32,000 nt of DNA, taken from Desulfocapsa sulfexigens DSM 10523. Lineage in GTDB: Bacteria > Desulfobacterota > Desulfobulbia > Desulfobulbales > Desulfocapsaceae. Position numbers and translations under genes: made by a program. Below, piece after piece: positions 26,250 to 28,423 of the stretch. The notes below the pieces were generated by a model, which was not told the origin of the DNA, did not search any database, and saw nothing but the letters and a program-made list of their open reading frames with translations. Numbering within the stretch: position 1 is the stretch's first letter; every line of letters starts with the position of its first letter. The stretch spans positions 270,001 to 302,000 of the forward strand of contig NC_020304.1 in the NCBI RefSeq assembly GCF_000341395.1, in the 5' to 3' direction.

Positions 26250-27197
26250 ATGATATCCATCAACCAAAAGGGGCAGGCATCTGTTTTTGTGCTTGCTCTT
26301 ATTGGGATCGTTCTTGTTGCCACCATCTTTCTCTATCAATCCGGACGGCTTACCAGCGAAAAAATGCAACTCCAGAATGCTGCTGACGCCGCAGCCTTTG
26401 GAGCCGCTACTCTGGAAGCACGCTCTCTTAATTTTTCTGCTTACACCAATCGGGCCATGGTCGCCAATGAAGTTGCCGTAGGCCAGATGGTCGGCATGCT
26501 CTCCTTTGTTGACGAGCTCAAGACTACGGGCGAATACATAGACGAGTATGCCGGTATTCTGGAGGCTGCAACCGCCTGGCTGTTTGCAATAATTACGGTT
26601 GGTGATGTAATTGAAGGTATTATCAGTGTCATTGTCGAGATCCTGGAGGATATCGGCTCCACAATCACCGAGGTGGGAGAAGAGGCTGAACAGGCCATGG
26701 CGGCAATTGCCTCTCCTGTCATCAGTGGACTCTCCATTATTAATAATGTTTACAGCATCAGCCAGACTGCCTATCACGGTGCAACCATTGTTCTGGTCAC
26801 CACGAATATTTTCCAGAGTCTTGAAGATAATGTTCCAGGCACCACCCCTTTCAATATGATCAACCTCTTTGATCCCGACAAACCCGGTGCTCACCTCTCC
26901 GACCTTGGAGTTCTTGCCCTTGTCGGACACCTCCCCTCTTACTGGCAGGGATACACAAAACGATATACCCCATCGAAACAGAAGAAAAAAAAGGAATCAG
27001 AAGAAGAGAAAGAAAAAGAAAAAGAAGACGAGGAGTTGATATCAAAAGACGAAAGAAAAATAAAAAATGACAGAAAGCGGATTGCCGATGATCAAAAAAC
27101 CTTAGGACAGGATGAGAAAAAGTACAATGCTGCCCTAAAAAAAATAGAGGCTGATAAAAAAAGATTACGGCTGAAAAGAAAAAATGCGATTCGCTGA
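26250..27197 (+). CDS. TadG-like (Tad N-terminal domain) pseudopilin, N-terminal segment that ends in a frameshift
   Basis: NQKG|QASVFVLALIGIVLVATIFLYQSGRLTSEKMQLQNAADAAAFGAA is the TadE/G-like N-terminal pattern. The frame-0 stop at 27195-27197 falls inside a K/E-rich tract. Confidence 0.75.
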   Translation: MISINQKGQASVFVLALIGIVLVATIFLYQSGRLTSEKMQLQNAADAAAFGAATLEARSLNFSAYTNRAMVANEVAVGQMVGMLSFVDELKTTGEYIDEYAGILEAATAWLFAIITVGDVIEGIISVIVEILEDIGSTITEVGEEAEQAMAAIASPVISGLSIINNVYSISQTAYHGATIVLVTTNIFQSLEDNVPGTTPFNMINLFDPDKPGAHLSDLGVLALVGHLPSYWQGYTKRYTPSKQKKKKESEEEKEKEKEDEELISKDERKIKNDRKRIADDQKTLGQDEKKYNAALKKIEADKKRLRLKRKNAIR

Positions 27198-27466
27198 AAC
27201 AGGCCTGGGAAAAAGACAAAACCAAGGAAAACTCAGACAACTATGAAGCCTGTAAACAAAGATTAACTGAAGACAAGCTCACTCTGCAGGAAGACCAGGA
27301 TGCCCTGCAGGCAGTCGAGAAAACCCGGGCAAAACACCAGGAAAAGTTAAAAAAAGATCAAGCAACACTTGCACGCCACCAGAAAGACCTCACCGATGAA
27401 GAAGAAGACGAAGCAGAAGACGAAAAAGAAGAGAAGGAAAATGGGGGAAAAGAAGAAAATGCCGGG
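26976..27466 (+). other. Purine-rich, homopolymer-laden low-complexity coding tract encoding an E/K/D/R-rich segment
   Basis: The tract runs from SKQKKKKESEEEKEKEKEDEE... through ...DEEEDEAEDEKEEKENGGKEENAG. It contains A8 (26985-26992), A8 (27137-27144), A7 (27156-27162), A6 (27179-27184) and A7 (27349-27355). Confidence 0.8.
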
Positions 27467-28423
27467 ATGCAGCGCATGGCTGCGACTATCAGAGAAGCAC
27501 GTGACCCCTTCAGCAGTGGGGGCCCTCCGGTCTGGGACAAAGATATTTACAATCTCAACTACAAATTCAGCAACCGGGACTGGAAGTTTGGCCTCGGATT
27601 TGACGTAAATCTCCACGTCGGTCCTTTCCATTTTGGACATCTCTCTTTTTTCACCGGCATGGACAGCAAAGGAGGTTCCGAGGTACGCTATAAAGGGAAC
27701 AACTATGGCTGGTCAGGGCTTGACACCTCGGTTATCGAAGCGCAGTTGACTATCATGGGCTATCCTATTGAGCTGGCCATCCCCACTGGAGGAGGTGGCT
27801 ACCAGGCGGTGAACACCTCAGAAAATGAACTCACCGTTCTCGACATGCCCCCCACCCTCGGCTACTACGGTCAACCCAAAATCTATGGAGAAGCAGGATA
27901 CCCATACGGTCGCTGGCCCTCCTGGGAAGGAGCAGCCACTGAACTTGAAGAGAATGTCATAGAAGGCAACCCCTACTCCGGTCTCAAGCCATACAGAGAC
28001 ATGACGAAAACAGATCAAAACACATCCGCCTACAGTATGCCATTTGTGGCACCTTTTTTTCTTGTGGGAGTCGTCAGAACCTATAAGGACATCAACAAAA
28101 CAGGCCCCACATTCAGTGGTAACCTTAATCTTCTTGAGGACAATCCTGATATTGACCGAATCGGAGCCATTGCCAAATCAGAACTCTATTTCGACCGCCC
28201 TACTGACTTGAGCTATTTCCTGCGCCACGACAAAAAAACTGAAAAGCCTAATGTGTTCGGCCCATTCTGGCAGGCAAGACTTTCTAAAACAAGTGACCTC
28301 GATCGTTTCCTTGCCATGGCCATACAGCACAAGAAGATATGGATCGCCAACCATGATGCTGCAAACGTCCCTGGCCTGAAGGCGCTCAAGGATGAACTGG
28401 AGAAGATTTTGAATCTCTTTTGA
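27158..28423 (+). CDS. TadG-like protein, C-terminal segment (frame open from 27158; first ATG at 27467)
   Basis: The frame of the 27467 ORF stays open 103 codons upstream of its ATG. Those codons encode a seamless continuation of the K/E-rich tract (KITAEKKKCDSLKQAWEKDKTKEN...). There is no SD before 27467, and no signal or prepilin N-terminus. Confidence 0.7.
   Translation, partial: KKITAEKKKCDSLKQAWEKDKTKENSDNYEACKQRLTEDKLTLQEDQDALQAVEKTRAKHQEKLKKDQATLARHQKDLTDEEEDEAEDEKEEKENGGKEENAGMQRMAATIREARDPFSSGGPPVWDKDIYNLNYKFSNRDWKFGLGFDVNLHVGPFHFGHLSFFTGMDSKGGSEVRYKGNNYGWSGLDTSVIEAQLTIMGYPIELAIPTGGGGYQAVNTSENELTVLDMPPTLGYYGQPKIYGEAGYPYGRWPSWEGAATELEENVIEGNPYSGLKPYRDMTKTDQNTSAYSMPFVAPFFLVGVVRTYKDINKTGPTFSGNLNLLEDNPDIDRIGAIAKSELYFDRPTDLSYFLRHDKKTEKPNVFGPFWQARLSKTSDLDRFLAMAIQHKKIWIANHDAANVPGLKALKDELEKILNLF

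What the first reader, a model, noticed from the sequence alone, without database searches (positions are those of the whole stretch)
26250..28423. TadG-like minor pilin split by a frameshift confined to a 40-nt poly-A window that holds a correctly phased A_AAA_AAT slippery heptamer
Two adjacent ORFs appear to be one gene of about 724 codons.
- The first ORF (frame 0, 26250-27197) has the TadE/G-type prepilin N-terminus and stops at the TGA at 27195.
- The second ORF (first ATG at 27467) has no SD, no signal peptide and no prepilin N-terminus. Its frame is open back to 27158, just after a TAA at 27155-27157.
- Those 103 extra codons continue the same K/E-rich sequence seamlessly.
- Any frame switch must therefore be a -1 shift occurring between 27158 and 27197.
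- That interval contains an A7 run (27156-27162) and an A6 run (27179-27184).
- In frame-0 register, AGA AAA AAT gives the canonical X_XXY_YYZ heptamer A_AAA_AAT at 27179-27185.
- The C-terminal end (AKSELYFDRP...PNVFGPFWQARL) resembles, from my memory only, the conserved ending of TadE/TadG-family proteins. That would fit a single TadG-like protein.

Three explanations cannot be separated from sequence alone: (a) a homopolymer sequencing or assembly error, (b) slipped-strand phase variation or a fixed pseudogene, (c) programmed -1 ribosomal frameshifting that yields a short and a long isoform. I see no strong downstream hairpin or pseudoknot (only GCG-ATT-CGC and CAGGCCTG) and no upstream SD-like stimulator. 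This weakens option (c).
Basis: partly seen in the sequence, partly recalled or inferred. Interest (0 to 1): 0.7.

Follow-up and report, generated by a model that had tools for sequence, protein, structure and literature searches.

The report
One-base gap splits a pilus gene
The two ORFs are one conserved 724-codon Tad-pilus (TadG-related) gene that is split only because a run of eight A's is recorded as seven in a genome sequenced by 454 alone, so this is most likely a sequencing error or a very recent mutation, not programmed frameshifting.

Summary

The interpretation needs correcting. The window is Desulfocapsa sulfexigens DSM 10523 (UWK_00247/UWK_00248). Four near-identical environmental contigs (94.5-99.1% nt identity) and every more distant homologue examined encode a single ORF. 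The only difference at the junction is A8 in the relatives against A7 in the window at 27156-27162.

Adding one A restores a 724-codon ORF. Against the closest relative, 19 of 20 substitutions are synonymous, including 15 of 15 in the downstream half.

The heptamer at 27179 is incidental:
- It is in phase only because of the upstream missing base.
- Such heptamers are common in this A-rich linker (19-36% of 42-nt windows).
- It is not conserved in more distant orthologues.
- No downstream RNA structure follows it.

The genome was sequenced by 454 pyrosequencing only (31x, Newbler, no Illumina polishing), a method known for miscounting poly(A)/poly(T) runs.

My estimates: sequencing undercall about 0.68, genuine recent frameshift about 0.22, phase-variable tract about 0.05, programmed recoding about 0.03. 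Interest is low.

The parts
26250..28423 (+). The whole TadG-related gene. It is 2174 nt as recorded, and 2175 nt (724 codons) once one A is restored.
   Evidence: After repair it is 99.1% identical in nucleotides to the intact 724-aa gene on L001. The 120 listed homologues are single ORFs, and those that align end to end with the query are 710-783 aa.
26250..27197 (+). ORF1 as recorded: UWK_00247 / AGF76832.1 / WP_015402531.1, 315 aa. Its last 9 codons (RLRLKRNAIR-type tail, 27162-27194) are out-of-frame translation.
   Evidence: compared with P0001, which reads ...ADKKKITAEKKKCDSLK.
26271..26408 (+). N-terminal TadE/G-like domain (PF13400, residues 8-53) with a hydrophobic helix. The motif is KG/QASVF, with no Glu at +5.
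   Evidence: E = 2.9e-08, 34.4 bits against a cutoff of 22.3; sequence.
26967..27463 (+). Variable Lys/Glu-rich linker (residues about 240-405), predicted to form a long helical hairpin. It is A-rich and holds all the A-runs, including the lesion.
   Evidence: Alignment A2; AlphaFold helices 251-322 and 326-393; composition.
27156..27162 (+). The lesion: an A7 run where all four close relatives have A8 (GAT AAA AAA AAG ATT = D K K K I).
27152..27157 (+). TGA and TAA in the -1 frame. These set the upstream limit of the downstream open frame.
27179..27185 (+). The A_AAA_AAT heptamer, which is incidental. In intact relatives the same bases are read as AAG AAA AAA TGC.
27158..28423 (+). The downstream half, in the -1 frame. 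It holds the rest of the linker and the conserved C-terminal domain from the invariant G406-M407. UWK_00248 is annotated from ATG 27476.
   Evidence: M407 (ATG 27467) is an invariant internal residue of the family, not a start codon. All 15 substitutions against L001 are synonymous in this frame.
25906..26169 (+). Flp-type major pilin gene immediately upstream (87 aa; ...GQG/MTEYIIIV).
   Evidence: The Pfam Flp_Fap match is weak and below cutoff.
28426..29373 (+). TadE-like gene (315 aa) with a prepilin-type motif G/QAATEF.
   Evidence: The same gene was called on L001. It has no Pfam hit.
30085..30471 (+). Small TadF/Flp-like gene (128 aa) with the motif G/QSAVEY.
   Evidence: The Flp_Fap and Class_III signal matches are weak.

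Best explanation
The two ORFs are a single gene for a TadG-related protein of the Tad/Flp pilus operon of Desulfocapsa sulfexigens DSM 10523.

The gene is interrupted because a lysine-codon run that is A8 in all close relatives (GAT AAA AAA AAG) is recorded as A7 at 27156-27162.

The most likely cause is an undercalled homopolymer in a genome assembled from 454 pyrosequencing reads alone. On that reading the real organism carries an intact 724-codon gene and makes one 724-residue protein by ordinary translation.

Nothing is programmed here. The A_AAA_AAT heptamer 17 nt downstream is a by-product of the A-rich Lys/Glu linker.

Shown: one gene, the exact site of the lesion, the lack of conservation of the split or of the heptamer, and the sequencing method. 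Inferred: that the missing base is an artefact rather than a real mutation.
For: 1. Identity of the window. ORF1 and ORF2 are exact matches to AGF76832.1 and AGF76833.1 of D. sulfexigens DSM 10523.
2. Close relatives. L001 (JGI metagenome), L002 (MAG GCA_975001335.1), L003 and L004 (Logan assemblies) are 94.5-99.1% identical in this gene. All carry an uninterrupted 724-codon ORF with A8 at the site. A fifth fragment, P0125, also reads through.
3. Only one coding indel. Across 15.7 kb of window/L001 alignment (98.3% identity, 263 substitutions, 5 indels), this is the only indel inside a coding region.
4. No decay. Adding one A gives a 724-codon ORF. Against L001, 19 of 20 substitutions are synonymous, and 15 of 15 are synonymous in the half downstream of the lesion.
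5. Family architecture. 223 homologues have E <= 0.001. The 120 best were listed and are single proteins; nearly all carry the N-terminal PF13400 domain, and the 92 aligned all have both conserved end domains. The best 80 genome loci each give one match, spanning both halves wherever the contig is long enough.
6. Sequencing method. The genome paper reports 454 GS FLX Titanium at 31.3x, 1.1x Sanger fosmid ends and Newbler 2.5.3, and names no Illumina data (PMC3739170).
7. Known error class. 454 errors concentrate in A/T homopolymers and rise with run length (PMC3277595). 454-only genomes showed roughly 190-410 conflicting indels (the rows seen), mostly in poly(A)/poly(T), even at 29x (PMC3084740).
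Against: No reads from DSM 10523 were available, so a real A7 in the strain cannot be excluded.
- The other two A8 runs of the same gene (26985, 27137) were called as A8, matching the relatives.
- All other ORFs in the 32-kb window look intact. The assembly is therefore not riddled with homopolymer errors locally.
- Intergenic homopolymers near 25782 and 25824 vary naturally among the relatives themselves, so real length changes at such runs do occur in this lineage.
Confidence: 0.68

Rival explanations
1. The strain really carries A7. This would be a very recent slipped-strand deletion that turned the gene into a pseudogene, for example during decades of laboratory culture where pilus-mediated adhesion is dispensable. 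Cells would make a 315-aa N-terminal fragment and little or no C-terminal domain.
For: - The sequence as deposited is A7.
- Homopolymer length does change naturally among close relatives in intergenic DNA.
- The absence of any decay downstream (15 of 15 synonymous) fits a very recent event as well as it fits an artefact.
- Loss of Tad-dependent adherence on prolonged culture is known in Aggregatibacter: rough to smooth conversion (abstract of PMC9239275).
Against: - The platform and the site class (an A/T run of 7 or more, 454-only) make an artefact more probable beforehand.
- All five independent relatives read through the site.
- The rest of the operon is intact.
Confidence: 0.22
2. The A-run is a phase-variable contingency tract. 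It would switch between A7 (off) and A8 (on), toggling the pilus tip protein within populations.
For: The gene is pilus-associated, the tract is a mononucleotide run, and the window and its relatives differ by exactly one unit.
Against: - All four relatives, including one only 94.5% identical, have the same A8. The tract is therefore stable across much more divergence than separates the window from them.
- A-runs in the gene are no more frequent than synonymous-codon shuffles give. Three runs of A8 or longer were observed against a mean of 1.81 (P = 0.23). The longest run (8) is shorter than in about 77% of shuffles.
- The tract is absent at the equivalent site in orthologues with 62-66% protein identity.
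- From my own knowledge, an A/T run of 7-8 is short for an efficient contingency tract.
Confidence: 0.05
3. Programmed recoding. This would be either -1 ribosomal frameshifting at A_AAA_AAT (27179-27185) or at the A7 run, or RNA-polymerase slippage on A7. It would give a short and a long isoform, as in dnaX or Citrobacter tssM1.
For: - An in-phase X_XXY_YYZ heptamer and an A7 run lie inside the only interval where a shift could join the frames.
- A precedent exists: an interrupted secretion-system gene is rescued by slippage at a poly-A run (PMC4256274).
Against: - The split architecture is found in no relative. Orthologues are single ORFs.
- In those relatives the heptamer bases are read in the other register. 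The motif is not conserved further out.
- In-phase heptamers occur at chance frequency in this linker.
- There is no downstream structure: z = +0.39 for 27186-27285 and z = -1.40 for 27163-27262.
- The tssM1 precedent needs A11 for 20-25% slippage. E. coli RNA polymerase needs at least 7 T, and more than 7 A (abstract of PMC6260861).
- At most, a low unprogrammed leak could occur. A -1 slip of tRNA-Lys on A_AAA_AAA before AGA, or insertion of one A in the mRNA, would recreate the wild-type sequence ADKKKITAE. That last point is my inference.
Confidence: 0.03

Closest known systems
454 pyrosequencing homopolymer indel errors in assemblies without polishing
   Same: A single-base length error in an A/T run of 7 or more creates an artificial frameshift that splits one gene into two annotated ORFs. 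The platform, assembler and lack of Illumina data match.
   Different: This is not proven for this site, because no reads were available. The neighbouring A8 runs were called correctly.
TadG / TadG-related proteins of Tad (Flp, type IVc) pilus loci
   Same: The protein has the N-terminal PF13400 TadE/G-like domain. It is large and sits directly after the flp pilin gene, ahead of TadE/F-like genes, RcpC, the RcpA secretin, TadA, TadB and TadC. NCBI names ORF1 'pilus assembly protein TadG-related protein'. A recent study models TadG as a large minor pilin at the pilus tip with a modular C-terminal domain (PMC12075869).
   Different: The C-terminal 320-residue domain and the long Lys/Glu helical hairpin have no Pfam, NCBIfam or PDB counterpart. 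No vWA domain was found. The N-terminal motif lacks Glu at +5.
Citrobacter rodentium tssM1: transcriptional slippage rescues an interrupted secretion gene
   Same: A machinery gene is interrupted just after a poly-A run, and adding one A to the mRNA would restore the full-length protein.
   Different: tssM1 has A11, and 20-25% slippage was shown experimentally. Here the run is A7, below the length that bacterial RNA polymerase needs, and relatives simply have an intact gene.
dnaX-type programmed -1 ribosomal frameshifting (A_AAA_AAG with stimulators)
   Same: An A-rich X_XXY_YYZ heptamer lies in phase with the upstream frame.
   Different: There is no upstream SD-like stimulator, no downstream stem-loop, no conservation, and orthologues show no two-frame architecture.

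Membership tests
TadG-related / PF13400 (Tad) family | N-terminal TadE/G-like domain scoring above Pfam's gathering threshold | tested here: met
   PF13400, residues 8-53, 34.4 bits against 22.3. The precomputed PF13400 annotation is present on nearly all homologues.
TadG-related / PF13400 (Tad) family | Encoded in a tad/flp pilus locus | tested here: met
   An Flp-like pilin lies upstream. TadE/F-like genes lie downstream. On the collinear contig L001 these are followed by RcpC, secretin, TadA-type ATPase and two T2SSF genes.
TadE/TadF-type pseudopilins cleaved by a prepilin peptidase | A G/XXXXE[YF] cleavage motif and a TadE Pfam or NCBIfam match | tested here: not met
   The N-terminus reads KG/QASVFV, with Phe rather than Glu at +5. 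The only hit is TIGR03816, below threshold at 24.4 bits against 50.95. The neighbouring genes do have the motif, G/QAATEF and G/QSAVEY.
Programmed -1 ribosomal frameshift site | The two-frame gene architecture and the in-phase slippery heptamer are conserved in orthologues | tested here: not met
   Orthologues are single ORFs. The heptamer is out of phase in close relatives and absent in more distant ones.
Programmed -1 ribosomal frameshift site | A stimulatory element: downstream hairpin or pseudoknot, or an upstream SD-like sequence | tested here: not met
   Downstream folds are no better than shuffled sequence, z = +0.39 and -1.40. No GGAGG-like element appears upstream in the sequence.
Programmed -1 ribosomal frameshift site | The slippery motif occurs more often than chance gives | tested here: not met
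   19-36% of 42-nt linker windows contain an in-phase heptamer.
Productive transcriptional slippage site | A homopolymer long enough for RNA-polymerase realignment (about 9 or more A/T in known bacterial cases) | tested here: not met
   The run is A7. The precedents use A11. E. coli RNA polymerase needs more than 7 A. Actual slippage cannot be tested with these tools.
Phase-variable contingency locus | Tract length is polymorphic among closely related genomes or within populations | tested here: inconclusive
   The window has A7 and four relatives all have A8. Within-population data were not available. Tracts are not enriched over synonymous shuffles.
454 homopolymer assembly error | 454-only data, an A/T run of 7 or more, a single-base length difference from close relatives, and no sequence decay | tested here: met
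   Direct confirmation from reads is not possible with these tools.

The most novel reading that the evidence does not exclude
DSM 10523 really carries A7, and the full-length tip protein is still made at a low level. This could happen by unprogrammed slippage on the A-run, either insertion of one A by RNA polymerase or a -1 slip of tRNA-Lys on A_AAA_AAA ahead of the AGA codon. It could also happen through A7/A8 phase variation in the population. Either way, the Tad pilus tip protein of a sulfur-disproportionating bacterium would be produced in only a fraction of molecules or cells.
Probability: 0.06. Interest if true: 0.4.

Novelty: not a real feature. Interest (0 to 1): 0.1.

Why it matters
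The main value is as a correction.
- UWK_00247 and UWK_00248 (WP_015402531.1 and WP_015402532.1) should be read as one 724-residue TadG-related protein, or flagged as a frameshifted gene.
- This 454-only reference genome probably holds more artificial splits of the same kind at long A/T runs.
- The case shows that an in-phase slippery heptamer in a Lys/Glu-rich, A-rich region is not evidence of recoding.

There is also a small positive by-product. The repaired protein defines a conserved, uncharacterised TadG-related family. A confident AlphaFold model of it has no counterpart among solved structures.

Tried and rejected
- Programmed -1 frameshifting at A_AAA_AAT: rejected on conservation, chance frequency and lack of structure.
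- Independent initiation of ORF2 at ATG 27467: rejected. That Met is the invariant internal residue M407 (motif G-M-x-R-x-A-A-T) of a single-chain family.
- Contingency-tract selection: a synonymous-codon shuffle shows no enrichment of A-runs.
- Looking for the window's own genome or reads:
  - The look-up of encoding contigs had no record of ORF1.
  - No cluster member is a resequenced DSM 10523.
  - The genome-contig scan did not return the source genome among its best 80 loci.
  - Error and real mutation therefore could not be separated.
- Looking for other broken genes in the window, as a sign of a sloppy assembly: none found.
- Function of the C-terminal domain:
  - Pfam, NCBIfam and PDB sequence searches found nothing significant.
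  - The first AlphaFold run, with 18 sequences, was poor (pLDDT 47).
  - The second, with 92 sequences, was good (pLDDT 83.9).
  - Foldseek against the PDB then gave only non-significant long-helix matches, best E = 0.017.
- One paper search and one paper look-up failed on term syntax.
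Full report
**1. The observation**

- ORF1 (26250-27197, 315 aa) ends at TGA 27195.
- The -1 frame has TGA at 27152 and TAA at 27155, and is then open from 27158 to the stop at 28421-28423.
- Its first ATG is at 27467.
- A7 lies at 27156-27162 and A6 at 27179-27184.
- In the ORF1 register, AGA AAA AAT gives A_AAA_AAT at 27179-27185.
- ORF1's N-terminus matches Pfam PF13400 (Tad, TadE/G-like) above threshold. The downstream half matches no Pfam family.

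**2. Origin of the window**

An exact-sequence look-up identifies ORF1 as AGF76832.1 / WP_015402531.1 (UWK_00247, 'pilus assembly protein TadG-related protein'). The downstream ORF is AGF76833.1 (UWK_00248, 'hypothetical protein'). Both belong to Desulfocapsa sulfexigens DSM 10523, chromosome of 3,986,761 bp. GenBank starts UWK_00248 at the second ATG, 27476.

**3. One gene**

A search with the conceptually fused protein returned 223 homologues with E <= 0.001.
- The best matches are single proteins of 720-783 aa that cover 100% of the query. One is a 724-aa protein at 99% identity.
- An alignment of 18 full-length relatives, and another of 92, show three parts: a conserved N-terminal domain (about 1-240), a variable Lys/Glu-rich linker (about 240-405) and a conserved C-terminal domain (406-724).
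- The Met encoded by ATG 27467 is the invariant internal residue M407 (G-M-x-R-x-A-A-T). It is not a start codon.
- A scan of one genome per species found 181 related loci. The best 80 each give a single match, which spans both halves wherever the contig is long enough.

**4. Where the frame breaks**

Four independent, near-identical contigs were retrieved:
- L001, from JGI metagenome 3300001419;
- L002, from MAG GCA_975001335.1;
- L003, a Logan assembly of SRR27205362;
- L004, a Logan assembly of SRR33089659.

All four carry an uninterrupted 724-codon ORF in the same operon. At the junction the only difference is GAT-AAAAAAAA-GATT (A8) in all four, against GAT-AAAAAAA-GATT (A7) in the window at 27156-27162. 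The intact proteins read ...ADKKKITAEKKKCDSLK.... A fifth partial sequence, P0125, also reads through.

The lesion is therefore the A7 run, not the A6 run or the heptamer.

**5. No decay**

Adding one A to the window gives a 2175-nt, 724-codon ORF.
- Against L001 there are 20 substitutions (99.1% identity), and 19 are synonymous.
- All 15 substitutions downstream of the lesion are synonymous in the -1 frame.
- Across the whole 15.7-kb alignment with L001 (98.3% identity, 263 substitutions) there are five 1-nt indels. This is the only one inside a coding region.

The break is thus either extremely recent or not real.

**6. The heptamer is incidental**

- In the intact relatives the same bases are read as GAA AAG AAA AAA TGC. 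The 'correct phasing' in the window is simply a consequence of the base missing 17-23 nt upstream.
- In-phase X_XXY_YYZ heptamers are frequent in this A-rich linker. ORF1 has 6 (4 of them A-rich) and the intact L001 gene has 10. One occurs in 19% of random 42-nt stretches of linker composition and in 36% of real linker windows.
- Orthologues with 62-66% protein identity have neither the A-run nor the heptamer at the equivalent site, yet are intact.
- RNA folding downstream shows nothing beyond shuffled sequence, z = +0.39 and -1.40.

**7. Sequencing history**

The genome paper states the method: 454 GS FLX Titanium at 31.3x, 1.1x Sanger fosmid ends, 259 Sanger gap-closing reads and Newbler 2.5.3. 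The word Illumina does not occur in the paper (PMC3739170).

Published comparisons show what to expect from this method.
- Errors in 454 consensus sequences concentrate in A and T homopolymers. They increase with run length and create artificial frameshifts (PMC3277595).
- 454-only bacterial genomes showed roughly 190-410 conflicting indels (the rows seen), mostly in poly(A)/poly(T), even at 29x (PMC3084740).

An A8 read as A7 is the textbook case.

**8. Why a real mutation is not excluded**

- No DSM 10523 reads or resequenced copy could be found.
- The two other A8 runs of the gene were called correctly.
- The other ORFs of the window look intact.
- Intergenic homopolymers near 25782 and 25824 differ naturally among the relatives.

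A very recent slipped-strand deletion, for instance during laboratory culture, would look identical in the sequence.

**9. Phase variation and slippage**

- All four relatives share A8, although one is only 94.5% identical.
- A-runs are not enriched over synonymous-codon shuffles. Three runs of A8 or longer were observed against a mean of 1.81 (P = 0.23). The longest run is shorter than in most shuffles.
- The known rescue of an interrupted machinery gene by RNA-polymerase slippage uses A11, with 20-25% efficiency (PMC4256274).
- E. coli RNA polymerase needs more than seven A's (PMC6260861 abstract).

If A7 is real, a small unprogrammed leak is conceivable. It could come from insertion of one A in the mRNA, or from a -1 slip of tRNA-Lys on A_AAA_AAA before AGA. 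Both would regenerate the wild-type ADKKKITAE. This is my inference only.

**10. What the gene is**

The operon reads as follows:
- an Flp-type pilin (25906-26169, G/MTEY...);
- this TadG-related gene;
- a TadE-like gene (28426-29373, G/QAATEF);
- a secreted protein of 237 aa;
- a small TadF/Flp-like gene (30085-30471, G/QSAVEY).

On the collinear contig L001 these are followed by RcpC, secretin, an FHA-TadA ATPase, TadB, TadC and TPR proteins.

A recent study models TadE, TadF and TadG as a minor-pilin tip complex, with the large TadG as its backbone carrying a modular C-terminal domain (PMC12075869). That fits this protein's architecture, although its N-terminal motif (G/QASVF) lacks Glu at +5.

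With a 92-sequence alignment, AlphaFold gives a confident model (pLDDT 83.9, pTM 0.69). It shows long N-terminal helices, a helical hairpin in the linker and a beta-rich C-terminal domain. Foldseek against the PDB finds nothing significant (best E = 0.017). Sequence searches of the PDB and NCBIfam also find nothing.

**11. Verdict**

This is one gene with one base missing from an A8 run. My estimates, which rest on the evidence above rather than on a calculation, are:

| Explanation | Probability |
|---|---|
| 454 homopolymer undercall | about 0.68 |
| Genuine recent frameshift | about 0.22 |
| Phase-variable tract | about 0.05 |
| Programmed recoding | about 0.03 |

Interest is low. The practical outcome is an annotation correction, and a caution about slippery-heptamer calls in A-rich coding sequence.

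Noticed in passing
window 26250-28423 (repaired); proteins P0001-P0120: The repaired protein belongs to a conserved family with three parts: a PF13400 N-terminus, a variable helical hairpin and a beta-rich C-terminal domain of about 320 aa. The family occurs in Desulfocapsa, Desulfobulbaceae, Desulfuromonas and many Gammaproteobacteria. The C-terminal domain has no Pfam, NCBIfam or PDB match. A confident AlphaFold model (pLDDT 83.9) has no significant Foldseek hit in the PDB.
   Followed up: partly
window 25782-25789 and 25825-25832 (intergenic, between the MazG-like gene and the flp pilin gene): Two more homopolymers differ in length between the window and its close relatives. The first is A8 in the window and A7 or TA8 in relatives. 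The second is T8 in the window and T9 in L001-L003. These could be natural variation or further 454 miscounts. They lie upstream of the flp pilin gene, where they might sit in its promoter or leader.
   Followed up: partly
window 15391-16248 (+): A PilD-type prepilin peptidase (A24_N_bact plus Peptidase_A24, 285 aa) lies about 10 kb upstream of the tad operon. No TadV-type peptidase was seen within the operon on the collinear contig L001.
   Followed up: no
window 16294-22278 (-): A cluster of redox genes lies next to the tad locus: NrfD-like membrane protein, 4Fe-4S dicluster protein, CCG/Fer4 protein and a nitrate-reductase-gamma-like protein, resembling Dsr/Hdr/Qmo-type modules. It may be of interest for sulfur disproportionation but is unrelated to the finding.
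   Followed up: no
L001 position 909 of the intact gene (equivalent to window 27156): In the intact relatives the A8 run itself forms an in-phase A_AAA_AAG heptamer, with a -1 frame stop three codons later (GAT TAC GGC TGA). This formally resembles the dnaX layout. The run is not conserved beyond the closest relatives and has no stimulators, so it is most likely meaningless.
   Followed up: partly
P0127 (ENA contig of 1739 bp): A 312-aa relative diverges abruptly from the family right at the A8 run equivalent to window 27137-27144 (...KKYNA then unrelated sequence). This is probably a contig-end or chimeric assembly artefact at the low-complexity A-rich stretch.
   Followed up: no
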